IMG/VR virus record: IMGVR_UViG_3300050581_000202
DNA from: a virus
Taxonomy: Duplodnaviria; Heunggongvirae; Uroviricota; Caudoviricetes
Direction: 5' to 3' (one strand)
Length of the DNA stretch: 22,700 bases
A program made the translations under genes and the position numbers. The notes beneath the pieces are model-generated. The model was given only the letters and a program-made list of their open reading frames with translations, did no database searches and had not been told where the DNA came from. Of the stretch, positions 8,726 to 22,636 are shown one piece after another (position 1 is the first letter of the stretch; the number at the start of each line of letters is the position of its first letter).

Positions 8726-9625
8726 ATGTCCCAGGTCATCAAGGGTAGCTGCCCGATGTGTTACGTTGCGGTCTATCTCTGTGGTATTCTGTCACAGTGT
8801 GTGCTTCTGACCGGATGTCAACCGGAAAGCAAGAAACCGCCGGAAGGGCAGACGGCACATTCAGTGTCGCAAGGCCATCCTATTCCGGCCCCGTCGAACA
8901 CGTCGAACGCCGAGACCTCTGGGCCGGAGTTGCACAGGACATTCACTAACACTGCGAAACTCTACGTGGACTCAGTGCCGGCCGGCGCAGACGTCTACGT
9001 GGAAACGCCTGAGCAGCCGAGACAGACAGATGAGTCGGGGAATCTGAAGTCGCAGGGCAAGACGCCGCTCACGCTTGACGTTCCGGAACGGCGAGAGGTG
9101 AAGGTTGCGATCGTGTGGGAAATGAAGGAGTACATCACCAAGGTCAAGCACCTCCCTTCCATGGACGGTTGGACCACACGATTCAGTGCCCCTCGGCCAT
9201 TTGGACAGAGCCCACTTGCTGCTTGGGACTATTTCTCGTTTGACACCTCGCAGACATGGGTCGTCCAATCGAAAGGGAATGAGATTCTCGCTCTTGGGCC
9301 CGTTTACAGCCTCGACGACTTTCCCGGCAACCGCTTGTGCGCCCTGTTTATCCCGCGAGGAATCAAACCATCCACGTTCCATAGCCTCATGCCAAATCCC
9401 GACTCATTCGAGATCGACTTTGCTGGATGGAAGAGGGACCTTCGCTATCGCGGCCTCTCGGAGGACCAAGCGATTGAAGCGGTTGAATGCCTGCGCCGTT
9501 GCGGTAAGTATGTAGCTATAGTCAAGGATCGGTCAAACCCCAACAAGAGCGTCTTGGTGGCGAGCACAGCACAGAGAACCAGTCCGCCTCGCTTCTTGAC
9601 GCAGACTCGTGTTCTCGACCATTAG
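8726..9625 (+). CDS. Lipoprotein with PEGA-like domain (299 aa)
   Basis: GGAGGT RBS at 8715-8720, ATG at 8726; lipobox LTGC. LYVDSVPAGADVYV...GKTPLTLDV is the PEGA pattern. C-terminal part unassigned. Confidence 0.7.
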   Translation: MSQVIKGSCPMCYVAVYLCGILSQCVLLTGCQPESKKPPEGQTAHSVSQGHPIPAPSNTSNAETSGPELHRTFTNTAKLYVDSVPAGADVYVETPEQPRQTDESGNLKSQGKTPLTLDVPERREVKVAIVWEMKEYITKVKHLPSMDGWTTRFSAPRPFGQSPLAAWDYFSFDTSQTWVVQSKGNEILALGPVYSLDDFPGNRLCALFIPRGIKPSTFHSLMPNPDSFEIDFAGWKRDLRYRGLSEDQAIEAVECLRRCGKYVAIVKDRSNPNKSVLVASTAQRTSPPRFLTQTRVLDH

Positions 9626-9824
9626 CCGACCGTCAACGTGTGTTCGAGGAATTCCGCCGCGACCGCGATCATCAACCGGTCGTTGGGCGTGTCGGGCCGG
9701 AACTCACGGGTCTCGGGCCGAGTTTGGTAGCCGAAGCTCGGGGCCAGTCGCTCGTAGGTCTCGTGGAATAGCTTGGCCAACTCTACCGGCGACAGGTTAC
9801 AGGCCGCTCCTGTGATTCCCAGAA

Positions 9825-10136
9825 TCAGATCATGCCCGACATGATCTTGTCGCAGAAGCTCGCCGACACGCCCCGCAGCCAGAGGCTTGCGAACAAGGCG
9901 GCGGCCTTGCGGGCGATGATCTCGCTCGTAGGGCCGATATGGATGGCCCCGTGCTTCCAGTGAAAGCCCCAGCCAGCGAACTCACATGCTCGATGCTTGT
10001 TGCCGTTGCCGTCCACCAATTCGTCGCACCACTCGACGGTGACGCCGTTCTCCTTCAACACGGCGTCGTAGTCCCAGCCATCGGGCTTGCCGTCCTTCCA
10101 GTCGTCCAGTGGCGGGAGGGAGTTGCAGCGGTTCAT
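9825..10136 (-). CDS. Hypothetical protein (103 aa), last gene of the helicase operon
   Basis: High-GC3 codon usage like its neighbours; starts 29 nt after the previous stop on the same strand. Confidence 0.65.
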   Translation of the reverse strand: MNRCNSLPPLDDWKDGKPDGWDYDAVLKENGVTVEWCDELVDGNGNKHRACEFAGWGFHWKHGAIHIGPTSEIIARKAAALFASLWLRGVSASFCDKIMSGMI

Positions 10137-10165
10137 GGAATCTTAGTCCAGCGGCAGACACGTGA

Positions 10166-10756
10166 TTACGCGGCGCAGTTCTGCCGGCGATTGCGGAACA
10201 CGAACGTCCCCATGACCGTCCGCGAGCGGTGCCCGGTCCCATCATACAGGTAGCAACGGCCGTCGTAACCCCAGCCGCTCCGCATCGCGTGCCGAAACTG
10301 TTGACATTGGCCCAAGCGTCGGAGAACGTGGTCGGGATCGCAGCGGTAACCCCGGTGCTCCATGATAAAGTTGGCGATGAGCACGGCGGCAAATGGCTCA
10401 AGAAGGTGGAGGACGCGGGCGATGTAGTCCGCGGCCGTGTCCACTGTCTGGAGCAGGTCGGCGTTGACTAGGCTCGGGTTGAAGCCTTCGCATCCGCGCA
10501 TCACCTGGAAGAAGTCGCCGTGGTGCCAGGCTAGGTTCGGCCAGGCCGCCACGTTGGCGTCGTGGATGTCGCGGTTGATCTCGACGCCGTGGAATTGCTC
10601 GGGCCGGATGAAGCCGGCTTTGAGTATCTGGTCCACCTCGCAGCCCTGGCTCGTCGAGAGTCCGGCCATCGACCAATACTGGTTGGCGACAGGGCCGTTA
10701 GCCAAGATCGTCTCGATGCGTGCGGCTTGCTTCTTCGGGCAGGACCAGGTTTTCAT
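10166..10756 (-). CDS. SAM-dependent methyltransferase-like (Rossmann) protein with atypical motif I (196 aa)
   Basis: ATG at 10756 overlaps the upstream TGA (ATGA). Motif II-like FHGVEIN, motif III-like WHHGDFF, then LVNADL. No GxGxG and no NPPY/DPPY/PC motif seen. Confidence 0.6.
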   Translation of the reverse strand: MKTWSCPKKQAARIETILANGPVANQYWSMAGLSTSQGCEVDQILKAGFIRPEQFHGVEINRDIHDANVAAWPNLAWHHGDFFQVMRGCEGFNPSLVNADLLQTVDTAADYIARVLHLLEPFAAVLIANFIMEHRGYRCDPDHVLRRLGQCQQFRHAMRSGWGYDGRCYLYDGTGHRSRTVMGTFVFRNRRQNCAA

Positions 10757-12024
10757 GGCTTCAAGTGCGCAAAGAGTTTGGGATGCTTTCGCATTGCAGC
10801 GTAGAGGCCCCAATACCCGTGCGTCTGGAGCCAGTATGGTCTCGGTAGTTTGCCGTGCTGTTTCACCAGCTTTTCCGCTTCCGCTAACCATTTCCGAGGC
10901 GTGCGGCGACGGCTCTTATTCTTTCGCGGAAAGACACCGAATCGTTCGGGGTATTTCCGTATGGCCGAATACAGGCTCCCGTATCCGTGCGTTTGCAACC
11001 ATCGTGCGCCCGGTAGCTTTCCGTATTGTTTGACCAGGCCGCGAGCATCCTGGACGTGTCGGTCCAGCCTAGTTTGGAACTCGCGTCGTTGTGCAATGTG
11101 GGCGAAGGCGTCGGGGCGTCTGTTTCGTGCTTGGATCAGTGCGGCGTAGCCATGCTTGATAAGCCAGGAGCAGGTGGGAAGCTGCCCGTACCTTTTCGCT
11201 AGTGTCTCGGCTTCCTTGACGTGCGCCGCAATTCCTTTTCCTCCTTTGTAGTCCTGCTTGATGTGAGAAAACTCCTCTGGGTTATGGGCGATGCAGCGGG
11301 CCAGTGCGGCGTGGCCGTGTATACGAAGCCAAGTGCGATGCGGCAATCGTCCGTGCTTCTTTTCGAGACGTTCGGCCTCTTCAATATGCTCGGCACGCGA
11401 CTTTCCCTTCTTTGTTGCTTGCTTGATTTTCGCAAAAGCTGCCGGGTACTTGCGCATCATGTTGTATAGATCACCATGTCCATGCTTGAGCAGCCAGAAG
11501 CAGTGCGGCAATTCGCCATATTTCCTTGCAAGTTGCTTTGCAGCCCGAACATGCTCCACAAGGGTCTTGATACCTTTGGCGCGCCGAATATGGGCGAACG
11601 CTGATGGCTCCCTGTACAGTGCGTGGATAAGTGCGTCTTGACCGTGTGCCCTCAGCCAAGATGTATGGGGCAAAGCGCCGTACCTCTGTGCCAATCGTTC
11701 AGCGGCTTCGACGTGCTTGGCAATGCTCCTTCGCCGGGTCTCCTGGTGAATATGGGAGAACGCATCAGGACGCCGTTGCATCGCACCAACGAGATCGCAA
11801 TGGCCGTGGGCTTTGAGCCAAGTGTAGTGCGGCAGCTTTCCGTGTTTCTTCATCAAGCGTTCTGCCGTGCGGACGTGCGCCGTAATGGATTCTCCGCGTG
11901 GCTTGATGTCTTGTTGCAGATGCGCGAACGCTTCGGGGTGCTTCCACATCATTTTGCGGAGGCAGCCGTATCCATTCCGAATGAGCCAGGCAGGGCTGGG
12001 AACTTTCCCCAAGACTTTTTTCAT
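10753..12024 (-). CDS. Basic protein built of tandem ~54-55-aa His/Trp-containing helical repeats (423 aa)
   Basis: ATG at 12024 overlaps the helicase TGA (ATGA), with GAGGGG RBS. Repeats are visible in the translation. Confidence 0.85.
   Translation of the reverse strand: MKKVLGKVPSPAWLIRNGYGCLRKMMWKHPEAFAHLQQDIKPRGESITAHVRTAERLMKKHGKLPHYTWLKAHGHCDLVGAMQRRPDAFSHIHQETRRRSIAKHVEAAERLAQRYGALPHTSWLRAHGQDALIHALYREPSAFAHIRRAKGIKTLVEHVRAAKQLARKYGELPHCFWLLKHGHGDLYNMMRKYPAAFAKIKQATKKGKSRAEHIEEAERLEKKHGRLPHRTWLRIHGHAALARCIAHNPEEFSHIKQDYKGGKGIAAHVKEAETLAKRYGQLPTCSWLIKHGYAALIQARNRRPDAFAHIAQRREFQTRLDRHVQDARGLVKQYGKLPGARWLQTHGYGSLYSAIRKYPERFGVFPRKNKSRRRTPRKWLAEAEKLVKQHGKLPRPYWLQTHGYWGLYAAMRKHPKLFAHLKP
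10756..12024 (-). repeat. Protein-level tandem repeat: 7 full units plus 1 N-truncated unit, consensus HVxxAExLxKxxGxLPxxxWLxxHGxxxLxxAxxxxPxAFxHI
   Basis: Example units: HVRTAERLMKKHGKLPHYTWLKAHGHCDL, HVEAAERLAQRYGALPHTSWLRAHGQDAL, HIEEAERLEKKHGRLPHRTWLRIHGHAAL. Diverged at DNA level. Confidence 0.95.
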
Positions 12025-13766
12025 GCAGCTAGCTCCCCTCTCGCGTTTCGAGCGGCCAACTCTTCCGCCATCAACACGCACTCTTCCAACGTGTGATCCT
12101 CGCGGCTGATCACCTTCCGCAACTCCTGGAAGGTCATGGTTCCGCAAAGGCCCGATGCCAGCGTCAGCAGTCCCTCGCTCAGATCGGTCTTCTTCAAGAC
12201 CTCGAAGGGGACATCAAGGCGAAGCCCCTTCAGCTTCCGGGTGACAAGGGCGTGCTGCCGCCAGAGTTTTCGCCAGACCTGCTCCCACTCCGCGTTCGGA
12301 ATGTCGTACTCGGCCAGGACGGATGGGGCCAATCGCCACGATTGGTCATAGTCCCGGCCGTTGGCGGCGACGAGGAAATCGCGGGAGAGCGATTGCCAGG
12401 TTTCGGTGTCCGTGACAGTTTCGATCAGACGGTCAGTGCGGTCACGTTTGCTTTTCTTCGGGACGCTGGATAGCGGGATCGGCAGGAACACGTCTTCCAG
12501 TAGCATGGCCGAAAAAACCACCGTGAGGATCGCGTTGCGCTGGTCCTTGAACCGCTTGCTGTTGGGAACGGCCGCCGGCAGGATTTGATAAACCTCGGCG
12601 TGCGTCTTGCCCTCGGCCCGCCGGAAAAGCCGGCCGATCATCTGGATCAATTCCGGGATGGAATGGCGCTCGCCGAGGATGATCGAGCGTTCGGCCTCGG
12701 GCCAGTCGAAGCCCTCCTTGCAGGTGTCCAGTGCGATGATGATGTCCACGTTGCCGCCGTCGTCCAGATAGGCTTTTCGGGCGTCCCGTCCCTTCTCCGT
12801 GACCAGATCGAGCACCTTCAGGTCGCCGACCAGGATCAATTCGCCCTGACGGCGGATGCGCGCGTTGAGCCGCTTGCTGATTCGGCGGACGACCTGCTTG
12901 ACTTCCACGTACTTGCACCGCCCGGCGTAGCGGCTGTTGCGCTTGGCCAGGTAAAGGATCGTCGGGCGCGGCTTGGCGAAAATCGAGTCCAACGCCTTGA
13001 GCGTGTCCCCGGCGATGATGTTGAACTCGAAAGATTCGACCGGCTGGACTTCCTCGAAATAGAGATCGTAGGGTATTTTGACGTGGGTGAACGTGGCCAG
13101 CATTTTGTCTGGCAGGATGTGGCGTGCGTCGCCTCGCATGTAGGTCGCGGTCGCCAGGCCGACGTGGTTGCCATGCGTCAGGCAATAGGTCGCCAGCGCC
13201 CCAAGGGAGTTGCTTACGGTGCCGTTGCCCTCCGCGATCTGGGCATTCTTGACGTGGTGGCCCTCGTCGATCCAGAGCACCAGGTCCTTCAGCAGCCCGA
13301 GCTGGCGGCGTTCTTTGAGCCGTTTATACGCATGAGCCAGCGTGGCGTGAGTGCAAACGAGGACGCGATCGCCGAGCGACTTGTGCCCGCCTTGGAGGAA
13401 GCGGATCAAGCCGGCGACGGTTCCGGCCGCCTGTTTGTGGCAGAGGTTGTGCTGGACGATCCAATCGACCAGCCGCCCGGCGATCCGTAGCTTCCAGTCG
13501 CGGGCGAACCCGCGAGCGATCAGAGTTTGCGGCACGGCGATGATGCACCGCAGGCTCGGGTTTCGGAGCAGTTTGTAGAGTACAAGGGATGCAATTATCA
13601 GGCTCTTGCCCCAACCGGTTGGCGCTTGGAGCACGACGCGCTCCTTATCTTTCATGGCGGCGAAGGCTCGGGCCTGCGAGCGGCGGAGTGTGGGCTTCGT
13701 CGGTTCAGTGATCGCCAGCGGATTCGTCTGGACCCATTTGCCGGAGAAGAGCGTCTGCGATTTCAT
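12021..13766 (-). CDS. Superfamily 2 (DEAD/DEAH-like, ResIII-type) helicase/ATPase (581 aa)
   Basis: Motif I APTGWGKS, Ia AVP, II WIDEGHH, III TAT(YMRGD), V KEGFDWP, VI QMIGRLFR. No nuclease domain seen. Confidence 0.92.
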   Translation of the reverse strand: MKSQTLFSGKWVQTNPLAITEPTKPTLRRSQARAFAAMKDKERVVLQAPTGWGKSLIIASLVLYKLLRNPSLRCIIAVPQTLIARGFARDWKLRIAGRLVDWIVQHNLCHKQAAGTVAGLIRFLQGGHKSLGDRVLVCTHATLAHAYKRLKERRQLGLLKDLVLWIDEGHHVKNAQIAEGNGTVSNSLGALATYCLTHGNHVGLATATYMRGDARHILPDKMLATFTHVKIPYDLYFEEVQPVESFEFNIIAGDTLKALDSIFAKPRPTILYLAKRNSRYAGRCKYVEVKQVVRRISKRLNARIRRQGELILVGDLKVLDLVTEKGRDARKAYLDDGGNVDIIIALDTCKEGFDWPEAERSIILGERHSIPELIQMIGRLFRRAEGKTHAEVYQILPAAVPNSKRFKDQRNAILTVVFSAMLLEDVFLPIPLSSVPKKSKRDRTDRLIETVTDTETWQSLSRDFLVAANGRDYDQSWRLAPSVLAEYDIPNAEWEQVWRKLWRQHALVTRKLKGLRLDVPFEVLKKTDLSEGLLTLASGLCGTMTFQELRKVISREDHTLEECVLMAEELAARNARGELAA

Positions 13767-13833
13767 AGTAGTGTGCCCTGAAGGTGTGACAGTGGTAGGC
13801 CAAAGCCTTGACCGCCGTAGCGGTCCAATGCAA

Positions 13834-14097
13834 TCAGTCCAAGTTCAGTTCACGGAGCAGCTTCACCAGCACGTCGCCGTGGCACGCCTCGGGCTTGCAG
13901 TGGCAGCCCAGCCGCTTCCCGGCCAGTTCGGGCAAGGCGGCCAAGAGATCGGGGCATCGGCGGAGGTGAATCTCGTATAGCTTTATGACCAGCTCGCGGT
14001 CCCTATCCCGGCCGATCAGGAACGGGTTTCCCCACTTCGACGGCCGGGCGATCAGCACGTCGTATTCTTCGTGGTGGAGGTTGACGACTCGGGTCAT
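13834..14097 (-). CDS. DUF4326 domain protein (87 aa)
   Basis: Signature RPSKWGNPF and LGCHCKPEACHGDVL. ATG overlaps the sigma-factor stop (ATGA). Confidence 0.9.
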   Translation of the reverse strand: MTRVVNLHHEEYDVLIARPSKWGNPFLIGRDRDRELVIKLYEIHLRRCPDLLAALPELAGKRLGCHCKPEACHGDVLVKLLRELNLD

Positions 14098-14945
14098 CTC
14101 ACGCCGCCTGAAGCACGTTTGACGCCGGGTATCGGCTCCTTGCGGCTTCGGGCACTCTCAGACGTAGGAGTCGGCCATCCTCCTCGCGGTAAAGCCAAGA
14201 GCGGTCGGGGTTGGATGGAGGGGATACCGCAAGCGTCCCTTCTTTGTGGCGGCTCAGGGGCTCCTCGTCGATTGCCAGACGACAATTCGCTGCGACCGGC
14301 CAGATCATCAGCGATTGCCATTCCCTTGAGCCGCCGCCGGGCACTGCGGACCCGCGACCAGGTGGTGCTTTCTGACAGGTTCAGGGCCTTGGCCGCCGCC
14401 GGTATCGTGTACTCTTTCAGGTCTACCAGTCGCAGGGCCTCGGCCTCGGGCGGCGGCAGTCTTTCGACATACTCCTCCGCCTCGATGCAGGCTTGCTGCC
14501 GGGCCGGCGCACATTTTGGGTCTTCAAGGCTGTTGCAGCCGATGTCGTGGCCGTCGCCGTCGTAATCGCCGCTCGGTCCGCAGTCGCTGTCCCAGGAGAT
14601 CGTCCTGTGGTGGTCTCGCATTTGGGCCGTAGCCTTTTCGACGTGCTTGAGGAGATACCTCTTGGCCGCCTTGTGGAGCAGGCCGTTAACCGACCTGACC
14701 GGCGCGCGGCAGCGCATCACTGACTTGAAAACGTTTTGCAGGATGTCCTGAACAGCGTCGGTGGTTACGCCCCGTCCTTCGAACTTCGTTTCGATCTGCC
14801 GGCGGAGGAATCGTCGCAGGCCAGGGACGAGCCGATCATGGAGCACTTGAAACGCCTCGTGGTCCTGGTGCTGGTGCCATCGGTTGAGCAGGGCTTCGTT
14901 GCTTTCCTCTTTTGCGGGCTGGTCCAGATTGGTCGGCTTTTCCAT
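14094..14945 (-). CDS. ECF-type RNA polymerase sigma-70 factor with low-complexity C-terminal extension (283 aa)
   Basis: Probable ATG at 14945 (GGAG/GAGG upstream). Region 2 (EAFQVLHDRL...DAVQDILQNVF) and region 4 (ERLPPPEAEALRL...AAAKALNLSESTTWSRVRSARRRLK). Confidence 0.85.
   Translation of the reverse strand: MEKPTNLDQPAKEESNEALLNRWHQHQDHEAFQVLHDRLVPGLRRFLRRQIETKFEGRGVTTDAVQDILQNVFKSVMRCRAPVRSVNGLLHKAAKRYLLKHVEKATAQMRDHHRTISWDSDCGPSGDYDGDGHDIGCNSLEDPKCAPARQQACIEAEEYVERLPPPEAEALRLVDLKEYTIPAAAKALNLSESTTWSRVRSARRRLKGMAIADDLAGRSELSSGNRRGAPEPPQRRDACGIPSIQPRPLLALPRGGWPTPTSESARSRKEPIPGVKRASGGVR
14099..14308 (-). CDS. Possible 69-aa protein (MIWPVAANCR...) overlapping the sigma C-terminal extension in another frame
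   Basis: ATG at 14308 with AAGGGA upstream, starting just after the sigma region 4 ends. Its stop lies 1 nt before the DUF4326 ATG. Looks more protein-like than the sigma tail. Confidence 0.4.
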   Translation of the reverse strand: MIWPVAANCRLAIDEEPLSRHKEGTLAVSPPSNPDRSWLYREEDGRLLRLRVPEAARSRYPASNVLQAA

Positions 14946-15498
14946 AAAATCCTCATCTCCAGACGCGACTCGGTGATGGCACGAGGTAGGGGCGTGGCTA
15001 CCTGCCCCGCATACTTTCCCTGATCCTCGCCATGAAAACATGCGCTACGGTTTGCCTGCCAGCGGGCATCAGTTCAATTCTTTTGAGGAAAAATCTACTG
15101 AGCCGCTGCATGGCTTCCTCGGACTGTGCGAGGCCGTCAAAGCGGGCGAACAGACACCCGAAGCTGCGTAGGGTTCCGGGTTTTTGTCGCTTAGAGAGGT
15201 AGGACCGGACGGCGAAACGAATCTGGCGCACAGCTTCGCCTGTTTCGCTATATTTCCCAGTTTCACTTGCCGTCGGCGCTGCTTATGACGGTCGCGCCGG
15301 CGTCGACTCGTCTTAATGCGAGCGAAGGAGAGGGATAGCGCCATCCCAAGAGAGTCGTGGGGACGTTGGTTGACTCCCCGCCGGGAGCCGGTATCTTGAA
15401 GAGAGTCGAGGGCGCCCAACAACGGGCCGGGACCGAGGCTCGTACCGGCTAGGTTGCCGTGCTCGATGTTGGACGTCTGTTGGGCGCGGCGTGAGAGC

Positions 15499-15592
15499 CA
15501 ACTAGGTCGAAGACCTAGCGCGAGCCATCGAAAGCGCGCCCAACAATCTTGTTCGGGAAATCGTCGAGTCAACTAGGTCACAGACCTAGCGC
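15499..15592. repeat. Two 23-bp direct repeats CAACTAGGTC-N3-GACCTAGCGC (15499-15521, 15570-15592), each holding the palindrome CTAGGTC-N3-GACCTAG
   Basis: Read directly: caactaggtcgaagacctagcgc and caactaggtcacagacctagcgc, period 71 bp. Confidence 0.9.
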
Positions 15593-15789
15593 CCGCCGCA
15601 CACGGCCGATTTGCCCTATTAGGCTGTAAGACTAGGATTAGCAGGGGTTTGAGACACGCGCCAGGCATATATCCTAGCGCGATTTGCGCCCAACAAATGT
15701 CCAACACATGAAGTCAGAATGAGGCGTTTTGAGGGGGACTGAACGGGAGTGCCAAAGAACGTAAGTACAAGCCACGTAACGCAATAGAT

Positions 15790-15813
15790 TTATCCACAAG
15801 GAGTTGTGAAAAG
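15790..15813. promoter_or_regulatory. Pair of inverted DnaA boxes: TTATCCACA (perfect) and TGTGAAAAG (8/9)
   Basis: TTATCCACA at 15790-15798 and a reverse-strand near-match at 15805-15813, 6 bp apart. Function not shown. Confidence 0.5.
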
Positions 15814-15825
15814 TAGACGCTCCTC

Positions 15826-15879
15826 TTGAGGGCCTAGTGGCCGCAAGGCCGTGCAGGTTCAAGTCCTGTTTCCCGCACC
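15826..15879 (+). pseudogene. 3' half of tRNA-Leu(GAG): att-site fragment, not an intact tRNA
   Basis: Loop TT-GAG-GG, 3' anticodon strand CCTAG, long variable arm GGCC-GCAA-GGCC, T-arm GCAGG-TTCAAGT-CCTGT, acceptor strand TTCCCGC-A-CC. The upstream sequence (TCCTC; CAAGGAG) cannot form the anticodon stem or a full acceptor stem. Confidence 0.8.
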
Positions 15880-15888
15880 TTGCTACAT

Positions 15889-15922
15889 AAGGACTTACGT
15901 CGATTCGGCGTGAGTCCTTTTT
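15889..15922 (+). terminator. Rho-independent terminator downstream of the tRNA 3' fragment
   Basis: AAGGACTTACGTCG-ATT-CGGCGTGAGTCCTT hairpin (14 bp with G:U pairs) ending in a T run. Confidence 0.75.
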
Positions 15923-16117
15923 CTTGCGCCTTGCAAATATAGCAAGTTTCTATCAAGCTGTATTGTATAGTTGTAGTAAGGCGTTGCGGCGATTCCGAAG
16001 GGTCGTTGCAGCTTCGCAGGGAGGCCGTGTAGCAGCCAGCCAGTCGTCTCGCTCGCCTGCCCCATCTACGTCCACTTGCTGCTCTGCCGAGCCCGCACCG
16101 ACTTGATAGGACTTGAT

Positions 16118-17341
16118 ATGGCCTCCATCGAACAAGACCCGGCCTCCGGCAACTGGCGCATCCGAATCTACTTCGACAAGAAGCAGTATTTCCGTTCCTG
16201 CGACACGACGGATGAGGACGCCGCCCGGCGCACCCTGGGCACCGTCGAAGAAACGATTTCCCTTCTCAAGAGGGGAAGGCTAGTCATCCCAGACGAAACG
16301 GATGACATCGCCGAGTTCCTGATTAACGGCGGGAAGGTGACGGAGAAGGCACCGAAGATGGTGCGAAAGACGCTCAAGGAAGTGATCGACGCCTACTTCG
16401 CAGCCATCCCCTCGGGGGCCAAGGAAGCGAACTCCTTGCTCACGGAGAGAATCCACCTGGGGCACTTCCAACGACTGCTCAAGGGCACGACGCCGATCCG
16501 GGCAATCGGGGTGCCGGCATTGCAGAAGTATGTCGTCGAACGGAGCGACGAAAGCGGCATCCGGGGCCGCAAGATCAAGTCCGGCACGATTCGGAAGGAA
16601 CTGGTCACGTTCGGTCAGTTGTGGCGGTTTGCCAAGGCAAACAACTGGGTCAGCACGGACTATGACCGCAAAGCCATCAAGCTGCCAAAGTCGGCCGAGA
16701 AGCCACCCTTCCAGACCTGGGAGGAAATCGAAGCCAAGGTCAAGGCCGGCGGCTTGACTGATGCGGAAGTCAGCGACCTGTGGGACTGCCTGTTCTTGCG
16801 AGGCAAAGAGATTTTGGCCTTCCTCACCTACGTCGAAAAGAATGGCAAGGCCCCTTGGATTCACCCGGCGTTGGCAATCGCAGCCTATACCGGCGCGCGC
16901 CGATCTGAGATCATGCGGTCGGAGTGCGCGGATTTCGACTTTCAGCGGCCGATGGTGCTGCTCCGCGAGAAGAAGCGAGAGCGAGGAAAAGTGACCTTCC
17001 GAACGGTCGATTTCCACGACGACCTTCAGACGATCATGCGGAAGTGGTTCAAGGAGGGACACCCCGGCGGCAAGTACACGATCTGCGCGGAGGCGAATGT
17101 TCCCCTAACGCCCGATGAAGCCGATCGCACCTTCCAGGCGACGATCGCCGGTAGCAAGTGGGCGGTGCTTCGAGGCTACCATGTGCTGCGGCACTCCTTC
17201 GCTTCGCTCTGTGCGATGAAGGCGGTGCCGGAGCACACGATTAGCCGATGGATGGGCCACGAGACCGAGGAAATGAAGAAGAGATACCGGCATCTCTACC
17301 CGGAGCAGACGAAGCGGGCCATGCAGAAGCTATTTGGCTGA
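16118..17341 (+). CDS. Tyrosine recombinase/phage integrase (407 aa)
   Basis: ATG at 16118 with AGGA RBS. N-terminal arm-binding-like beta segment (WRIRIYFDKKQYFRS). Catalytic set: R (YTGARRSEI), HxxR (HVLRH), H (MGH), Y (KRYRH). Confidence 0.95.
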   Translation: MASIEQDPASGNWRIRIYFDKKQYFRSCDTTDEDAARRTLGTVEETISLLKRGRLVIPDETDDIAEFLINGGKVTEKAPKMVRKTLKEVIDAYFAAIPSGAKEANSLLTERIHLGHFQRLLKGTTPIRAIGVPALQKYVVERSDESGIRGRKIKSGTIRKELVTFGQLWRFAKANNWVSTDYDRKAIKLPKSAEKPPFQTWEEIEAKVKAGGLTDAEVSDLWDCLFLRGKEILAFLTYVEKNGKAPWIHPALAIAAYTGARRSEIMRSECADFDFQRPMVLLREKKRERGKVTFRTVDFHDDLQTIMRKWFKEGHPGGKYTICAEANVPLTPDEADRTFQATIAGSKWAVLRGYHVLRHSFASLCAMKAVPEHTISRWMGHETEEMKKRYRHLYPEQTKRAMQKLFG

Positions 17342-17632
17342 TCGCGGCGGGAGTCTGGGCACGCCCTCTTGTTCAAGCCGCGTCAGTTCATCGGCCGCAA
17401 TGCGCCACTGGCTGTCCTCGCCCTTTTCGGCTCGAATCTTGCCGTGGCTGCACAACTGCCGCAGCGTCCATGCGGCGCGGTTGAGCCGTTCTCCAGCGTC
17501 TTGCAAGTTGTACCATCGCCGGTCCCTGGCTACGCGCATCAGGCGCAGGATTTCCAAATTCTGCTCCTTGATTTGACGGATTTCTTCCAGGATGCCAGGG
17601 GCGACGGCGGTGTTCGATTCCGATGGTGTCAT
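17330..17632 (-). CDS. Excisionase-like MerR/HTH_17 DNA-binding protein (100 aa; alternative start at 17701)
   Basis: WYNLQDAGERLNRAAWTLRQLCSHGKIRAEKGEDSQWRIAADEL winged-HTH pattern; overlaps the integrase 3' end convergently by 12 nt. Confidence 0.8.
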   Translation of the reverse strand: MTPSESNTAVAPGILEEIRQIKEQNLEILRLMRVARDRRWYNLQDAGERLNRAAWTLRQLCSHGKIRAEKGEDSQWRIAADELTRLEQEGVPRLPPRSAK

Positions 17633-17675
17633 GGTCGAGATGCTAGTTGGTCGATGCGCTCGAAACGTTGCTGGA

Positions 17676-17978
17676 TTACGAAATTCGTCGGCGAGCCTCA
17701 TGCCGCTCGATTTCCTCGACAGGGATGCGGACGCGCCCGCCGACCCGCACGCAACGGAGATGGCCGGCCAGGCACATTTGGTAGACCCTCTTGCTGCTTG
17801 TGTGCAGTAGCTCGGCCGCCTCTTTCACTCCGAGCGCTTGCCGGTCGTCCGGTTCAATGATGATCGGCCCCGGTGTCGGTCGGCTGAGCATGTCGGCCAA
17901 CGTGAGCACGGCAGCGGCCACCGGGTCGCTGGCTTCGAGAAGGTACTCGGTGAAGAGTCGTTTGGTCTCGGCGTTCAT
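17676..17978 (-). CDS. Excisionase-like HTH_17 DNA-binding protein (100 aa)
   Basis: LGVKEAAELLHTSSKRVYQMCLAGHLRCVRVGGRVRIPVEEIE is the classic excisionase-family pattern. Confidence 0.88.
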   Translation of the reverse strand: MNAETKRLFTEYLLEASDPVAAAVLTLADMLSRPTPGPIIIEPDDRQALGVKEAAELLHTSSKRVYQMCLAGHLRCVRVGGRVRIPVEEIERHEARRRIS

Positions 17979-17984
17979 GCGGTC

Positions 17985-18350
17985 TTAGCGGCGGCGGAAC
18001 AGTCCCCGGCGGCAAGGCTGACAGGCGGGGCGCGGCTCGGTTCGTGGTTCTACCACCTTGGCGGCCAGCGGCTCGGGCACCGCGGCGATTGGGGCCGCGA
18101 TCTCCACTTCCACGGGCACCTCGATGGTGGTCGGCGTGACTGTGGGCGGGGTCGGCGTCGGTGCCAGAATCGGCTCGGGGGCGATCTTGACCGGCGGAGC
18201 GGCAGTCAGCGGCGCGAGGGTCAGCCAGACACCCAGGGCCACGGCCGAGGCAATCAGGGCGGCAGCGGTAGTCAGGCGGCTGAGCAGGTCGGGACGAGTC
18301 ATGGTGCGGCGTCTTTCACGTAGGTGTAATCCTTGTCGGGATTGGGACAT
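17985..18350 (-). CDS. Membrane-anchored Pro/Thr-rich protein with CxxC-RRGLFRRR tail (start at 18350 or 18302)
   Basis: TM segment AAALIASAVALGVWLTLA, Pro-rich stalk; TGATG coupling to the upstream gene. Confidence 0.65.
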   Translation of the reverse strand: MSQSRQGLHLRERRRTMTRPDLLSRLTTAAALIASAVALGVWLTLAPLTAAPPVKIAPEPILAPTPTPPTVTPTTIEVPVEVEIAAPIAAVPEPLAAKVVEPRTEPRPACQPCRRGLFRRR

Positions 18351-18610
18351 CAGCCGTGCTTCTCGTTGATGTCATGGACGACGCCCTTTATGAACCGGCG
18401 TGCGGCCTTGAAGCGGAGGATCAAGGCACTGCCCAGACACCCGCCCACGGCCATGCCGATGCCCGAAAGCGTGGACGTGGCGAGGTTCAAGAGGGTTTCC
18501 GAGCGGTGCATCGCGGCGTAGGTCAGAGCCGAGGCGGCGGATGCCGCGACGACCAACAGGGCCAGCGTGCCGGTCAAGTAGGCAATCAGGCGTTGCAGGT
18601 TTGCTTTCAT
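18350..18610 (-). CDS. Small two-TM membrane protein (86 aa)
   Basis: Likely ATG at 18610 (MKANLQRL...), two hydrophobic helices and a charged C-terminus. Confidence 0.7.
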   Translation of the reverse strand: MKANLQRLIAYLTGTLALLVVAASAASALTYAAMHRSETLLNLATSTLSGIGMAVGGCLGSALILRFKAARRFIKGVVHDINEKHG

Positions 18611-18641
18611 CGGTTCACCATTCGTATGAGTCGGTAGCTTC

Positions 18642-18968
18642 TCATGGCAGCGGTCCCCACAGCCCCAGTTCCTCTCCGTAGCGGTCGGCATACCGGAAGA
18701 AATCCTCTTCGTGTGCATGTTCATCACCGAGGGCCTGGATTGCGGCATATAGCTCGTTGAAGCGACGGGCTAGGGTCTCGGCGACCTCGCGGGAACGTTG
18801 CCCCTGGTCCAGGCAGCGGCCAATCTCCTCCAGTTCCGCCATCATCGTCTGGGCATCCTTCCGCATTTGCTGAATCTGCCTGGCGGCCCGGTGGCAGATG
18901 ACTACGGCCTGCTTCTGTTGCGGCGTTAGAGAATTCCACTTTTCTTCCCACTCAGTCACGGCGTTCAT
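18642..18968 (-). CDS. Hypothetical helical protein (108 aa)
   Basis: ATG at 18968 with AAGGAG RBS, ATGA-coupled to the upstream small ORF. Confidence 0.75.
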   Translation of the reverse strand: MNAVTEWEEKWNSLTPQQKQAVVICHRAARQIQQMRKDAQTMMAELEEIGRCLDQGQRSREVAETLARRFNELYAAIQALGDEHAHEEDFFRYADRYGEELGLWGPLP

Positions 18969-19120
18969 TTCTCCTTGGCGAGTTCGCGTTTGGCGGCAGC
19001 CCGCTCCAGCCGATGAGTGACGGTCTTGTTCTTCTTGCCCGGATCGACGCAGCCCTTCGTTGGCCGACGGGACCAGTATTCGTAGCCCGGCCCCTTGGCA
19101 CCCTTCTTCGTGCGGCTCAC
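18965..19120 (-). CDS. Small basic protein MSRTKKGAKGPGYEYWSRRP... (51 aa, not in the ORF track)
   Basis: GTG overlaps the upstream TGA (GTGA) and its TGA overlaps the downstream ATG (ATGA); fills the gap exactly. Confidence 0.75.
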   Translation of the reverse strand: MSRTKKGAKGPGYEYWSRRPTKGCVDPGKKNKTVTHRLERAAAKRELAKEK

Positions 19121-19326
19121 TGGATCGTTCCTCGTTCATCCGGTCGCGCAGGCGGGCGAAAGCACGGGCGCGGCGTCAGGTCGCCGTTGCTGTGGATCAG
19201 CTTCCAATGCTTCCTTCGACACTGCCAACAGTAGCGATGGCTGCCCTGGGCCGTGCGGATCGTGCGGAACGTTGCTCCGCAATCGGGACAAATCTTGGTT
19301 AGTAGTGGCAGTGGCATCGGTGTCAC
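19117..19326 (-). CDS. Small zinc-finger protein (69 aa)
   Basis: CPDC...CWQC; GTGA coupling at both ends. Confidence 0.7.
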   Translation of the reverse strand: MTPMPLPLLTKICPDCGATFRTIRTAQGSHRYCWQCRRKHWKLIHSNGDLTPRPCFRPPARPDERGTIQ

Positions 19327-19496
19327 TCCAGCGGCGGCAGTCTCAGGTCATGGGCGATCTTTGCGGCCAGCTTGTGTTCGAGGGCATCGAGGCCGGGTCC
19401 ACCAGCGATTTCGCGCAGGTGCTCGTAGACCCGGCGTGCCTCGGCCGTCGAGAGAATCACAATCGCGCTGCCGTCGATGTCGGTGCTGGGCATCAT
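19323..19496 (-). CDS. Small hypothetical protein MMPSTDIDGSAIVILS... (57 aa, not in the ORF track)
   Basis: GGAGA RBS at 19505-19501, directly after the tRNA; stop overlaps the next GTG. Confidence 0.65.
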   Translation of the reverse strand: MMPSTDIDGSAIVILSTAEARRVYEHLREIAGGPGLDALEHKLAAKIAHDLRLPPLE

Positions 19497-19507
19497 TCAT
19501 TCTCCAG

Positions 19508-19581
19508 TAGCCCCGGCGGGACTCGAACCCGCATCCCAGGCTTGAAGGGCCTTATCCTGTCCAATTAGAAATGACGGGGCT
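19508..19581 (-). tRNA. Element-borne tRNA-Glu(TTC)-like gene with non-canonical features
   Basis: Perfect 7-bp acceptor AGCCCCG/CGGGGCT plus discriminator A; perfect T-arm GCGGG-TTCGAGT-CCCGC; anticodon arm AGGC-CCTTCAA-GCCT. C instead of U at position 33, a 4-bp anticodon stem, enlarged/weak D-arm, no encoded CCA. Confidence 0.7.
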
Positions 19582-19587
19582 TGCGGT

Positions 19588-19887
19588 TCACTTTGGTTCC
19601 TTCTTCAGCACTCGCCCAACGGCCTTGCTGGCGGCAGCCGCCAGCTTGCCCAGTTCGGTCTTAGCATCCACGGCGGCCTGGGTTAGTTGCAGCAGGCCGA
19701 CGAGATCGCTGGCGGCGGTACTGTAGGCCGGGTCGGTCGAATCGGCAGAGTTGACTACGCCGGTCTGCGTCTCGACCTCCTTGCGAAGGGCCGTTACCAG
19801 AACGGTCAACTCGTTGTCGGTCGCGGCCAGGTCGGCGATGCGGAGTTGCTTCAGACGGCCGAGGCTCTCACGGATGTCGCTGTTCAT
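19588..19887 (-). CDS. Hypothetical coiled-coil protein (99 aa)
   Basis: ATG directly follows the exonuclease TGA; Ala/Leu-rich helices. Confidence 0.7.
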   Translation of the reverse strand: MNSDIRESLGRLKQLRIADLAATDNELTVLVTALRKEVETQTGVVNSADSTDPAYSTAASDLVGLLQLTQAAVDAKTELGKLAAAASKAVGRVLKKEPK

Positions 19888-20592
19888 TCACGTTCCTTTC
19901 AGTCGTTTGATGCCCAGTCGAACCAGCCGCACAACCGCCAGGGCATCTTCCACGGCGGTGTGGGCTACTTTGCCGTCCAGCCCGGCCCGCTCGTAGCAAG
20001 TCTTGCTGTCGGGCAGCTTTTCGTCGTTAATAGGCCGCCAATAGAGGATGGCGGGGTCTAGGACGCGGTGCCGAAACTTCACGACGCGCGTGAATCCCGG
20101 CAGCCGGTAAAGAAACTGCATGTCGAAGCTGGCGAAGTTCTTGCCGGCCGCCTGCAAGTGCATTGGGTCCAGGCCGTTGGCCTTGGCCCACTGGGCCAGT
20201 TGCGCGCCCAATTCCTCCGGCTTGCAAAACTCACACGTCTGCGGCGGATTGGCGATCTGCTTCAGCAGACCGGCGTTCAGCGCCATCGCGTAGGGGCTGC
20301 CCGTGACCGTCTCGTAGGTCAGCACCCGCCGGAATCGCTGAAGCTGGTCGATAGGCGTCTTCCAATCGTCTATCACGGCTCCAACTTCGAGCGTCTGGCA
20401 GGCGGCCGGATCGAGCCCCGTGGTTTCGATGTCGATGCTGACGTAGGGCATTTTGGGCGGCGTGGCTGGCAGTGCCGGCTCGTTGGCAGCCCGCCAGTAG
20501 TGGCCGCTCCAACCACAGCCCGAGCACTGGCCAACATCTGGATTGCCGGTCGGCCTCAATAGCTCTTCGCAGTTCGGGCAGAGTTTCTTCAC
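19888..20592 (-). CDS. DEDDh 3'-5' exonuclease (DnaQ/oligoribonuclease-like) with N-terminal zinc ribbon (234 aa)
   Basis: GTG at 20592 (GTGA overlap). ExoI DIETTG, ExoII GKNFASFD, ExoIII HTAVEDA. N-terminal CPNC...CSGCGW. Confidence 0.9.
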   Translation of the reverse strand: MKKLCPNCEELLRPTGNPDVGQCSGCGWSGHYWRAANEPALPATPPKMPYVSIDIETTGLDPAACQTLEVGAVIDDWKTPIDQLQRFRRVLTYETVTGSPYAMALNAGLLKQIANPPQTCEFCKPEELGAQLAQWAKANGLDPMHLQAAGKNFASFDMQFLYRLPGFTRVVKFRHRVLDPAILYWRPINDEKLPDSKTCYERAGLDGKVAHTAVEDALAVVRLVRLGIKRLKGT

Positions 20593-21107
20593 GGCTGATC
20601 TCCGTCGATGATCTCGGCGTTGTGCTTGAAGAGCATGGCTTGAACCCAGTCTTCGCTCTCGATGTGCCAGGCCCCACACGAGCAAGGGCCGATCAGCGTG
20701 TCGCATGGCTGGCCGCCGTTGTAGTGGCGGTCGGTCCAGTTTGCCGGCCACGGAACCGCGCCGTTTATACGGCGTAGCTGCTGTCGCACGGCGCGGCTCC
20801 GTAGCGAGACCAGCATTTCGATGATCGAGTGGACGGCGTGCCGCCGGGCAAGACGGACCCGTTGCAGGTCGGCCTCGGTGGCGTCGCCGGCATCATAAAT
20901 CTGCTCGGCGAGCAATTCTTTGCGGCACACGTCGCGGTACAGTTCGAGGGTCTGCGCGGCGGCTAACACGGGGTTGAATACGTCGCTCTCCGGCGGCACC
21001 AGCAGGACTTCCTGCCGATCTCCCCACCAGCCGCAGACCTCGCACAAGCGGTCGGCGTCTCGGCTGCTTTCCAGGGGTGCCGTGCAACGAGGACAGAACT
21101 CAGCCAT
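20589..21107 (-). CDS. Zinc-ribbon protein with a second Cys/His cluster (172 aa)
   Basis: ATG at 21107 with GAGGA RBS; CPRC...CEVCGWWG and CDTLIGPCSCGAWH. Confidence 0.75.
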   Translation of the reverse strand: MAEFCPRCTAPLESSRDADRLCEVCGWWGDRQEVLLVPPESDVFNPVLAAAQTLELYRDVCRKELLAEQIYDAGDATEADLQRVRLARRHAVHSIIEMLVSLRSRAVRQQLRRINGAVPWPANWTDRHYNGGQPCDTLIGPCSCGAWHIESEDWVQAMLFKHNAEIIDGDQP

Positions 21108-22302: not shown

Positions 22303-22303
22303 A

Positions 22304-22522: not shown

Positions 22523-22636
22523 GGTTGTCCTTTCACAGGGAAGTAAGAGTGGTGCGACCGTCGATCAACGCGCCCCGCACCGTGGGCCGATTCCAACCCG
22601 TTTCAGGAGGCGAAGGGTCTGGTTGCTTGACGGGCT

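What the first reader, a model, noticed from the sequence alone, without database searches (positions are those of the whole stretch)
9825..14945. Coupled operon of ECF sigma, DUF4326, SF2 helicase, tandem-repeat protein and MTase-like protein: candidate nucleic-acid conflict system
Seen: six same-strand genes, three junctions being ATGA overlaps, next to an att site. The helicase has intact motifs but no nuclease. Its TATYMRGD and KEGFDWP motifs recall, from memory, YeeB-like helicases that usually sit with an MmeI-like methyltransferase and a GIY-YIG protein. Here those partners are replaced by a basic 8-repeat protein and a small MTase-like fold lacking DNA-MTase motif IV. Inference: a defence, anti-defence or DNA-translocating module, possibly with its own sigma factor. 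I recognise no named system with this composition.
Basis: partly seen in the sequence, partly recalled or inferred. Interest (0 to 1): 0.7.

Follow-up and report, generated by a model that had tools for sequence, protein, structure and literature searches.

The report
Phage helicase, repeat array, methyltransferase-fold trio
Three of the six flagged genes (a DNA-motor helicase, its split-off basic repeat tail and a small methyltransferase-shaped protein) form one unit that recurs in many uncultured phages, probably a motor-driven nucleic-acid methylation machine, while the sigma factor and DUF4326 gene are local neighbours.

Summary
Six minus-strand genes with three ATGA overlaps lie beside an att-type copy of the 3' part of tRNA-Leu(GAG). 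The helicase motifs are intact and no nuclease domain was found.

The conserved unit is three genes, not six: helicase (12021-13766), a 55-residue repeat array (10753-12024) and a 196-aa protein, p196 (10166-10756).
- Relatives encode helicase and repeats as one protein.
- Distant relatives fuse helicase, Pfam HA (DNA-binding) repeats and a p196 domain in one chain of 1068-1173 aa.
- p196 matches no Pfam family. Its model (pLDDT 90) has a class-I SAM-methyltransferase fold.
- A profile search finds 596 p196 clusters. In nearly every context read, a helicase gene sits just upstream, on phage or jumbo-phage-like contigs.
- A complex model docks p196 on the helicase N-terminus (0.72, best control 0.05).

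Sigma and DUF4326 accompany the trio only in the two nearest copies. The phage's closest relatives lack the whole block.

Best reading: a motor-coupled methyltransferase serving the phage, a new variant of the known DarB-type methylase-helicase pairing. Substrate and role are untested. A sequence look-up in the scan's earlier findings returned only this same stretch.

The parts
12021..13766 (-). SF2 DExH helicase (581 aa), of the YeeB-like/ResIII translocase type. It is the motor of the unit. Its last ~25 residues are the first half of a repeat unit.
   Evidence: Pfam DEAD 8e-10, ResIII 1e-7, Helicase_C 8e-5. Motifs I-VI are invariant in 26 relatives. Nearest solved sequences are XPB/Rad25 and the Type ISP motors LlaGI and LlaBIII. 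It is 31% identical (E 1e-47) to the helicase part of the three-domain fusion P0349.
10753..12024 (-). Basic repeat protein (423 aa): a half unit plus seven units of 54-55 aa, with consensus V..AE.LA...G.LP...WL..HGY..L..A.R..P..FAHI.Q. It is the split-off C-terminal tail of the helicase and a presumed nucleic-acid clamp.
   Evidence: P0007 (948 aa; helicase part 84% identical) carries the same repeats fused in frame. Fused forms of 836-940 aa occur in L008, L010-L012 and L015. pI is 10.6. In P0349 and P0268 the same position holds Pfam HA repeats. A 151-kb viral contig, L052, has this repeat type between a distant helicase and a distant p196.
10166..10756 (-). p196: a 196-aa class-I SAM-methyltransferase-fold protein of a family with no Pfam model. 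It is the presumed catalytic subunit.
   Evidence: It has no Pfam, NCBIfam, PHROG or PADLOC hit. AF2 pLDDT 90.2, pTM 0.87. All top Foldseek PDB hits are SAM MTases. VIA Z is 12-14 to Trm5a, Trm14, KsgA, ErmC', RsmD and others. It lies directly downstream of the helicase or repeats in every close locus that reaches it. A profile search finds 596 clusters, some fused behind helicase plus HA. It is predicted to bind the helicase.
13834..14097 (-). DUF4326 protein (87 aa): a lineage-specific neighbour and probably a separate counter-defence enzyme.
   Evidence: Pfam PF14216 at 1.4e-24 and PHROG 464 at 1.6e-32. It accompanies the trio only in L007 (81% identical) and L021 (84%). The family has been proposed to process phosphates on ADP-ribose derivatives (PMC9503650, PMC7824862).
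14094..14945 (-). ECF-like sigma factor (283 aa) with a ~75-residue low-complexity C-terminal tail: first gene of the block, lineage-specific and fast-evolving.
   Evidence: Sigma70_r4_2 at 1.4e-8; region 2 only 0.086. TIGR02937 scores 36 bits, below the 42.9 cut-off. It is 28-31% identical to the sigmas of L007 and L021, while neighbouring genes are 81-88% identical. It is unrelated to the phage's second sigma at record 32580-33122.
9825..10136 (-). p103: a 103-aa ORF of unknown function and last gene of the run. It is not part of the conserved unit.
   Evidence: No family hits. Its only match is a 43-residue stretch in L007, beyond the tmRNA gene.
15400..15919 (+). att-type region: repeated GCGCCCAACA and CTAGGTC..GACCTAG boxes (15409-15706), a decayed tRNA 5' half (15799-15825), an exact tRNA-Leu(GAG) 3' part (15826-15878) and a terminator hairpin (15889-15919).
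   Evidence: Repeats and sequence. The core is 100% identical to the intact tRNA-Leu(GAG) of G001:C6. Window 15673-15881 is 86.6% identical to L021, where the same boxes flank the core on both sides.
16076..17341 (+). Tyrosine integrase of the adjoining phage, followed by an HTH_17 excisionase-like gene (17330-17701, minus strand).
   Evidence: Phage_integrase at 4.6e-17 and HTH_17 at 9e-4. Homology to the closest phage relatives (92% DNA identity) stops at window 17704.

Best explanation
The functional unit is a three-part machine: an SF2 DExH helicase, its detached C-terminal array of basic 55-residue helical repeats, and a small methyltransferase-fold subunit with no target-recognition domain.

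Shown here:
- The three parts always travel together.
- They are often one polypeptide.
- They are carried mostly by phages.

Predicted, not shown: the methyltransferase-fold protein docks on the N-terminal strand and first RecA-domain insert of the helicase.

Inferred mechanism: the repeat array holds nucleic acid, most likely double-stranded DNA. The helicase translocates along it using ATP. The attached SAM-dependent subunit methylates as it is carried, so the motor and clamp supply substrate access in place of a recognition domain.

Inferred role: marking or protecting the phage's own DNA against host restriction-type immunity, or otherwise countering defence. This is analogous to the methylase-helicase dyad of phage P1 DarB.

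The sigma factor most likely drives transcription of this local block, and DUF4326 is a separate counter-defence enzyme. Both are lineage-specific additions, as is p103.
For: Unity of the trio:
- Helicase, repeats and p196 lie in the same order in all close loci that reach that far (L002-L004, L006-L015, L021).
- In distant viral loci, seven distinct contexts have a helicase upstream of p196: L037, L038/L039, L040, L048, L049, L050 and L052.
- Helicase-repeat fusions exist: P0007, P0023, and the 839-aa and 940-aa genes.
- Helicase + HA x5 + p196 (P0349), helicase + HA x3 + p196 (P0268) and HA x2 + p196 (P0288) occur as single chains.

Predicted contact: complex score (ipSAE) 0.72, 0.73 and 0.67 against a best control of 0.05. 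Contact agreement is at least 87% and partner pLDDT at least 82. In calibration, 58 of 80 solved complexes and 2 of 110 mismatched pairs reached the mark; those counts hold only roughly because my own alignments and three chains were used. The docking motif SGKWVQTNP is kept as AGRFIQANP in P0349 at 31% overall identity.

Enzymology:
- All helicase motifs are invariant.
- The p196 fold is class-I SAM MTase.
- The acidic residue after strand 2 (E59) and N98 are nearly invariant among close relatives; the GD after strand 3 (D81) and D100 are invariant.
- The HA domain that occupies the repeat position in relatives binds DNA (Mills 2013, as cited in PMC12191111).

Phage ownership:
- In L010 and L013 the trio is the last block of the early operon, before xis-int-att.
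- Distant members lie on 207-546 kb phage-like contigs.

Precedents:
- The DarB methylase-helicase dyad (PMC5512222).
- ATPase-dependent methylation in MANTIS.
- YeeB-like helicases paired with the MTase DnmA.
Against: - No methylation or binding data exist.
- p196 lacks the (D/N)PP(Y/F) and C5 motifs of known DNA methyltransferases, and its glycine loop is atypical (SMAG).
- Its nearest structural neighbours are a flat plateau that leans towards RNA methyltransferases.
- E59 and D81 are less conserved across the wide family.
- The repeat fold is unknown. The single-sequence model failed (pLDDT 36), and homology to HA was not detected.
- The closest relatives of the adjoining phage (92% DNA identity) lack the block entirely, so it is dispensable.
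- In this window the block lies across the att core from the integrase. In L007 and L021 it abuts a tmRNA gene in bacterial contigs, so this copy may be a stranded remnant rather than an active phage gene set.
Confidence: 0.42

Rival explanations
1. The trio is a prophage- or island-borne defence or superinfection-exclusion module. It would be a nuclease-less relative of the DnmA-YeeB-YeeC restriction-like cassettes, marking resident DNA or sensing foreign DNA.
For: The helicase is about 30% identical to YeeB-like helicases that sit between an MmeI-like MTase and a T5orf172 protein on small integrative elements. Homologues in Vibrio affect phage sensitivity (PMC9973331). The block lies beside integration modules, and L007 and L021 have defence-like islands nearby. 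It is accessory among related phages.
Against: There is no nuclease or other effector in the trio and no full-length PADLOC match. The position is conserved inside the early operons of related prophages. The trio is present on jumbo-phage-like contigs of 207-546 kb packed with small genes and RtcB, which argues for a phage-serving function. The B. subtilis dnmA-yeeB-yeeC locus itself gave no protection.
Confidence: 0.15
2. It is an RNA-directed machine: an RNA helicase with an RNA-binding repeat array and an RNA methyltransferase. It would modify phage or host RNA, for example protecting or repairing tRNA in the manner of Hen1 in Pnkp/Hen1 repair.
For: The top structural neighbours of p196 are mostly tRNA and rRNA methyltransferases: Trm5a, Trm14, KsgA, ErmC', RsmD and TrmK, with Hen1 at Z 12.2. 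RtcB, RNA ligase, PTH2 and RF-1 genes lie within about 10 kb in three distant contexts. SF2 DExH enzymes can act on RNA.
Against: The helicase's sequence neighbours are dsDNA translocases: XPB, Type ISP enzymes, Dnd-associated restriction and YeeB. HA repeats are reported to bind DNA. The structural plateau is generic to class-I MTases. RNA-repair genes are common in large phages and are not adjacent to the trio.
Confidence: 0.15
3. It is an ordinary phage replication or recombination helicase. The repeat tail would tether it to DNA, and the methyltransferase-fold partner would be a non-catalytic adaptor or SAM sensor.
For: PHROG 16 'DNA helicase' matches at 3.7e-21. The trio sits at the distal end of the early operon among exonuclease-like and other DNA-metabolism genes. 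The glycine loop and motif IV of p196 are atypical. The SAM-contact residues are less conserved in the wide family.
Against: Many polar residues of p196 are invariant across 23 to 38 sequences (Y27, E40, Q54, D100, W162, Y171; N98 nearly so), which suggests an active site. The closest phage relatives replicate without the block.
Confidence: 0.15
4. All six genes (sigma, DUF4326, helicase, repeats, p196, p103) form one coupled conflict system with its own dedicated sigma factor.
For: The six genes share a strand and have three ATGA overlaps. Sigma, DUF4326 and the trio recur in L007 and L021. In L007 the sigma-like and DUF4326 parts lie in one open frame of 424 codons. A sigma also precedes the fused helicase in L008.
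Against: Most trio-bearing loci have neither sigma nor DUF4326. The sigma is only 28-31% identical between copies whose neighbours are 81-88% identical. p103 is not conserved. No repeated promoter element links the sigma to the block.
Confidence: 0.08

Closest known systems
Phage P1 DarB-type 'DNA methylase-helicase dyad' (Iyer et al. 2017, PMC5512222)
   Same: A phage-borne pairing of an SF2 ATPase with a methyltransferase and no nuclease. It is proposed to need motor activity to modify incoming DNA and to protect it from restriction.
   Different: In DarB the MTase is an EcoKI/TaqI-like adenine methylase with NPPY, placed N-terminal to a SWI2/SNF2 motor inside a giant virion-packaged polyvalent protein. 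Here the order is helicase, then repeats, then MTase fold. The helicase is the YeeB-like/ResIII type. p196 belongs to a family with no model and has N-A-D-L at that position. The genes sit in an early-type operon.
DnmA(YeeA)-YeeB-YeeC cassettes (MmeI-like MTase, SF2 helicase, T5orf172 protein; PMC9973331, PMC2731913)
   Same: The helicase is a detectable homologue (about 30% identity over about 75% of its length, E about 1e-43). It too works next to a methyltransferase gene.
   Different: There is no MmeI-like MTase/TRD protein and no T5orf172/GIY-YIG protein here. The partners are a repeat array and a 196-aa MTase fold, and the carriers are phages rather than bacterial defence islands.
HA-domain helicases (Pfam PF03457 'Helicase associated domain'; NMR structure of BVU_0683 HA domain, Mills et al. 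2013)
   Same: Relatives of this unit (P0349, P0268, P0288) carry 2 to 5 HA domains exactly where the window has its 55-residue repeats, between the helicase and the p196 domain.
   Different: The window's repeats give no significant HA match. Pfam shows only a faint HNH_repeat hit at 0.065, and hhalign probability is below 1%. This is positional equivalence; homology is not shown.
Type I/III and Type ISP restriction-modification motors (EcoP15I Res-Mod, LlaGI/LlaBIII) and ATPase-activated methylation in MANTIS (bioRxiv 10.64898/2026.09.23.753747)
   Same: An SF2 or AAA+ ATPase is physically coupled to a methyltransferase on DNA. Helicase motifs V-VI match LlaGI and LlaBIII weakly.
   Different: The window unit has no nuclease, no target-recognition domain and no gamma-class adenine MTase motifs. 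It is phage-encoded.

Membership tests
DnmA-YeeB-YeeC (MmeI-like MTase / helicase / T5orf172) cassette | Helicase homologous to YeeB-type SF2 helicases | tested here: met
   P0109 and relatives are 30-33% identical over 69-75% of the query; tblastn gives 29.7% over 455 aa at E 1.7e-43. Their genes sit between MmeI-domain and T5orf172 genes.
DnmA-YeeB-YeeC (MmeI-like MTase / helicase / T5orf172) cassette | Adjacent MmeI-like methyltransferase with TRD | tested here: not met
   No MmeI_* or Eco57I Pfam hit on any of the seven block proteins.
DnmA-YeeB-YeeC (MmeI-like MTase / helicase / T5orf172) cassette | Adjacent T5orf172/GIY-YIG-type protein | tested here: not met
   No T5orf172 or MUG113 hit in the block.
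DarB-type methylase-helicase dyad | EcoKI/TaqI-like adenine MTase domain with NPPY-type motif IV | tested here: not met
   p196 has no N6_MTase-type Pfam hit. It has the sequence LVNADL at 96-101.
DarB-type methylase-helicase dyad | SWI2/SNF2 ATPase fused C-terminal to the MTase within a polyvalent protein | tested here: not met
   Pfam gives DEAD, ResIII and Helicase_C, not SNF2. The order is helicase first, and the protein has 581 aa.
HA-domain helicase (PF03457) | One or more HA domains above the Pfam threshold after the helicase core | tested here: inconclusive
   Neither the window proteins nor single repeat units match HA. Profile comparison with HA tails gives probability below 1%. The relatives P0349 (141.6 bits), P0268 and P0288 do match.
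Class-I SAM-dependent methyltransferase | Seven-stranded Rossmann-like MTase fold | tested here: met
   AF2 pLDDT 90.2. Foldseek probability is 1.00 to many SAM MTases. Best VIA match: Z 14.2, rmsd 3.7 A over 166 aligned residues.
Class-I SAM-dependent methyltransferase | SAM-binding motifs (Gly-rich loop after strand 1, acidic residue after strand 2, D/N after strand 3) and catalytic activity | tested here: inconclusive
   E59, G80-D81, N98 and D100 are conserved among close relatives, but the loop reads SMAG, and E59 and D81 relax in the wide family. Activity cannot be tested with these tools.
ECF (group 4) sigma-70 factor | Region 2 and region 4 domains above family thresholds | tested here: inconclusive
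   Region 4_2 scores 34.7 bits against a cut-off of 25.7. Region 2 scores only 13.1 bits against 24. TIGR02937 scores 35.6-36.4 bits against 42.9. The L021 homologue passes both.
DUF4326 (PF14216; rhodanese-phosphatase clade) | Full-length match above the gathering score | tested here: met
   87.0 bits against a cut-off of 25, covering profile positions 2-82 of 82.
Named anti-phage defence systems in PADLOC-DB v2 | Full-length match of the proteins to a system's models | tested here: not met
   The only hits are partial motif-level matches of the helicase to PbeA, HamB, Cas3 and RM fusions. The other six proteins give nothing.

The most novel reading that the evidence does not exclude
p196 founds an undescribed family of minimal methyltransferases that have no recognition domain of their own and work only when riding on a translocating helicase. 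This would give phages a sequence-independent, processive way of marking nucleic acid, possibly at an unusual atom, since the N-A-D-L motif fits no known DNA methyltransferase class. Such a mode of self-protection would be invisible to motif-based methylome surveys.
Probability: 0.2. Interest if true: 0.8.

Novelty: new variant of a known kind. Interest (0 to 1): 0.55.

Why it matters
Helicase-methyltransferase pairings are a recurring but poorly understood theme in phage-host conflict: DarB, DnmA-YeeB, BREX-like systems and MANTIS. This work defines a compact version that occurs both split and fused, and that is widespread in uncultured phages. Its catalytic-looking subunit belongs to a family of about 600 sequence clusters with no family model and no literature found. 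If the unit is a motor-driven methyltransferase, it would be a tractable system of about 1200 residues for studying how translocation is coupled to DNA or RNA modification. It could also explain restriction resistance in phages of Planctomycetota and in some jumbo phages. It also gives the Pfam HA domain a concrete context.

Tried and rejected
- PADLOC, NCBIfam and PHROGs gave nothing beyond generic helicase hits.
- The single-sequence AF2 model of the repeat protein failed (pLDDT 36), so there was no fold search of the repeats.
- Tests for HA or HNH_repeat homology of the repeats were negative or too weak: single units against Pfam, and the repeat profile against the HA tails of P0049 and P0349. 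The repeat profile against PDB sequences gave only spurious hits.
- A second att core copy was sought in the 86.8-kb record and around 9.4-10 kb. None was found, so the prophage limits stay open.
- The window's left-hand genes (GH17-like and the 335-aa ORF) were sought in the genomes that hold L021 and L011. Nothing matched, which is uninformative.
- The phage's private two-box promoter (ACTCCAGA ... CGATCTCCCAGCGGAG, four copies at record 22986-45801) is absent from the block; the one 2-mismatch hit is at chance level. This lowered the idea that the block's sigma reads that promoter class.
- The apparent repeat-p196 fusion in L006 looks like a frameshifted repeat reading through, so it was not used as evidence.
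- The wide p196 alignment was too diverse for a locus scan; a narrower one worked.
- The BFVD fold search gave only generic viral methyltransferases and chromo-domain fusions of giant viruses.

Full report
**1. What is there**

The window is the first 22.7 kb of an 86.8-kb IMG/VR record labelled provirus. Read on the minus strand, the run is:
- a sigma-like gene (14094-14945)
- DUF4326 (13834-14097)
- an SF2 helicase (12021-13766)
- a repeat protein (10753-12024)
- a 196-aa protein, here called p196 (10166-10756)
- a 103-aa ORF, p103 (9825-10136)

ATGA overlaps join sigma to DUF4326, helicase to repeat protein, and repeat protein to p196.

Family searches give the following:
- Sigma70 region 4 at 1.4e-8, with region 2 weak.
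- DUF4326 at 1.4e-24.
- DEAD, ResIII and Helicase_C on the helicase.
- Nothing significant for the repeat protein, p196 or p103.
- PADLOC returns only partial helicase-motif hits.

All helicase motifs are present and invariant in 26 relatives. The repeat protein is extremely basic, with pI 10.6.

**2. The real unit is three genes**

Helicase relatives in the protein collection fall into two length classes: about 580 aa, and 836-951 aa.

The long ones carry the window's repeat type fused in frame. An example is P0007, whose helicase part is 84% identical. The window helicase ends in the first half of a repeat unit, and the next gene begins with the second half. The ATGA junction is therefore an evolved split of one protein. 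About a dozen close relatives of 580-584 aa share it.

p196 follows the repeats in every close locus that reaches that far: L002-L004, L006-L015 and L021.

A word-based search finds only 50 close p196 proteins. Only two of 185,579 species genomes hold one: a Planctomycetaceae MAG and a Thermoguttaceae MAG. A profile search of 1.84 billion representatives finds 596 clusters.

Some of those clusters are the C-terminal domain of long proteins:
- P0349 (1173 aa) is a DEAD/ResIII helicase, five Pfam HA domains and a p196 domain.
- P0268 (1068 aa) has three HA domains.
- P0288 is two HA domains plus a p196 domain.

The helicase part of P0349 is homologous to the window's (31% identity, E 1e-47).

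In the distant contexts read, a helicase gene lies directly upstream of p196 in seven distinct contexts: L037, L038/L039, L040, L048, L049, L050 and L052. L051 and the partial match L053 show none within 6 kb. L052 also carries the window's repeat type between the two.

**3. The parts**

A p196 model built from 23 homologues is confident (pLDDT 90.2). Its fold is that of class-I SAM methyltransferases:
- Foldseek probability is 1.0 to dozens of them.
- VIA-align Z is 12-14.
- The top of that flat list is mostly tRNA and rRNA methyltransferases.

Conserved residues fall where SAM contacts are expected: E59 after strand 2, G80-D81 after strand 3, and N98-A-D100-L after strand 4. The motifs fit no canonical DNA methyltransferase class, however, and some relax in the wide family.

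The helicase's nearest solved relatives by sequence are XPB/Rad25 and the Type ISP motors.

The repeat fold could not be obtained, and homology to HA was not detected. HA domains are reported to bind DNA (Mills 2013, cited in PMC12191111).

**4. Do the parts touch?**

A three-chain prediction used the helicase, the last three repeat units, and p196 as the scored partner. It scored 0.72, 0.73 and 0.67, against a best control of 0.05. Contact agreement was at least 87% and partner pLDDT at least 82.

In the tool's calibration, 58 of 80 solved complexes and 2 of 110 mismatched pairs reached the mark. Those counts hold only roughly here, because my own alignments and three chains were used.

p196 strand 166-172 pairs with helicase residues 7-17, and helicase residues 88-133 also contribute. 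The model supports binding; it does not show it.

**5. Who carries it**

- In the Thermoguttaceae prophage (L010-L012) and in L013/L014, the trio is the last block of a long early operon, followed by an excisionase-like gene, an integrase and host DNA.
- Distant members lie on 207-546 kb contigs packed with small genes and RtcB. These look like jumbo phages.
- The phage adjoining the window's block has relatives with 92% DNA identity (L023, L024). They match window 17704-22700 and then diverge at the end of the excisionase-like gene. They contain no helicase, repeats, p196, sigma or DUF4326.

The block is therefore accessory within this phage group.

**6. The att question**

Window 15826-15878 is identical to the anticodon-loop-to-3'-end part of an intact tRNA-Leu(GAG) gene found elsewhere in the genome that holds L021. 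It is preceded by a decayed 5' half and followed by a terminator and the integrase.

L021 has the same pseudo-tRNA and the same GCGCCCAACA-type boxes next to the same block. Its integrase is different, only 23% identical over 155 residues, and the block is followed by a Peptidase_C92-like gene and a tmRNA gene.

L007 shares 6.4 kb at 88% identity with L021, covering the block, the C92 gene and the tmRNA gene. There, an intact tRNA-Pro and a serine recombinase lie in place of the tRNA-Leu remnant.

Two readings remain:
- The site is an attP and the block is the phage's arm beyond it.
- The block is older resident DNA, a chromosomal island or the far end of an earlier element, next to a decayed tRNA-Leu into which different elements have integrated.

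I lean to the second, about 60:40. Homology between the window and L021 covers the block side of the core only, and the closest phage relatives lack the block. No second core copy exists in the record. An independent assembly reproduces the junction between p103 and the neighbouring plus-strand genes.

**7. Sigma, DUF4326 and p103**

Sigma and DUF4326 precede the trio only in the window, L007 and L021. In L007 they lie in one open frame. L008 has a sigma, a 77-aa gene and ThyX instead.

The sigma is only 28-31% identical between copies whose neighbours are 81-88% identical. It is unrelated to the record's second sigma. The phage's four private promoter copies are absent from the block.

The Aravind group has proposed that DUF4326 processes phosphates on ADP-ribose derivatives in counter-defence. 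They also note its fusion to replication and restriction-modification components.

p103 is not conserved.

**8. Mechanism and comparison**

The best-supported reading is a motor-coupled methyltransferase. The repeat clamp holds the nucleic acid, the ATP-driven helicase moves along it, and a subunit without a recognition domain methylates. It serves the phage.

The nearest concept is the DarB methylase-helicase dyad. The nearest sequence relatives of the motor are YeeB-type helicases of DnmA-YeeB-YeeC cassettes. The defining features of both families were tested and not met, apart from the helicase kinship. I therefore file this as a new variant of a known kind.

The rival readings are a defence module, an RNA-directed machine, and a replication helicase with a non-catalytic adaptor. 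They remain open because the substrate and activity are untested.

Noticed in passing
window 14094-14945; L007:8696-9970; L021:5644-6624: The block's sigma gene is only 28-31% identical between copies in which the adjacent DUF4326, helicase and p196 are 81-88% identical. This suggests very fast evolution or replacement of the sigma alone. In L007 the sigma-like part, a hydrophobic helix and DUF4326 lie in one 424-codon open frame.
   Followed up: partly
L021:10628-11573 and L007:13669-14618: In two bacterial contigs the block is followed by a Peptidase_C92-like gene and a tmRNA gene (tag AKPRFAMAA). Beyond the tmRNA gene the two contigs differ. L021 carries HEPN_LA2681-TPR, Schlafen AlbA_2 and PRiA4_ORF3 genes there, a likely defence island at the tmRNA 3' end.
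   Followed up: partly
window 17704; L023:13025-19992: The closest phage relatives (92% DNA identity) diverge exactly at the end of the excisionase-like gene, a clean swap of the integration module. Instead, L023 has a different HTH_17 gene, unannotated genes, a DDE transposase and a reverse transcriptase (RVT_1) at its end.
   Followed up: partly
window 15409-15706; L021:4400-4980: The motif TTGTTGGGCGC/GCGCCCAACA recurs four or more times in both orientations on the block side of the att core in the window, and on both sides of the core in L021. These could be integrase arm-type sites or operators shared by two elements with different integrases.
   Followed up: partly
record G000 32580-33122 (minus) and 22986, 31961, 37060, 45801: The record has a second, unrelated sigma-like gene and four copies of a two-box element (ACTCCAGA, about 16-17 nt, CGATCTCCCAGCGGAG) upstream of genes outside the window. 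None lies in the block.
   Followed up: partly
L006:4390-5592: A 400-codon ORF joins three repeat units to p196 through what looks like an out-of-frame translation of a fourth unit. It could be a frameshift or an assembly error, not a designed fusion.
   Followed up: partly
window 9622-9780 (minus): A small ORF after p103 (…LAKLFHETYERLAPSFGYQTRPETREF…) has no family hit and no copy in the related loci. Its start codon is unclear.
   Followed up: no
L035/L036 (Logan SRR17288838 contig, 16,480 bp): An independent assembly reproduces window 1 to about 13,900, including the junction between p103 and the plus-strand genes, and extends 2.6 kb further left to a radical-SAM gene. The contig ends just upstream of the helicase start. 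The collection also lists the repeat protein on a 314-kb contig that could not be fetched.
   Followed up: partly
BFVD hits to the p196 model: The best viral structural matches are giant-virus proteins that join a chromo domain to a methyltransferase-like domain (Hyperionvirus, Tetraselmis virus 1; TM 0.55-0.62). A Mimivirus 'helicase domain protein' of 896 aa also matches.
   Followed up: no
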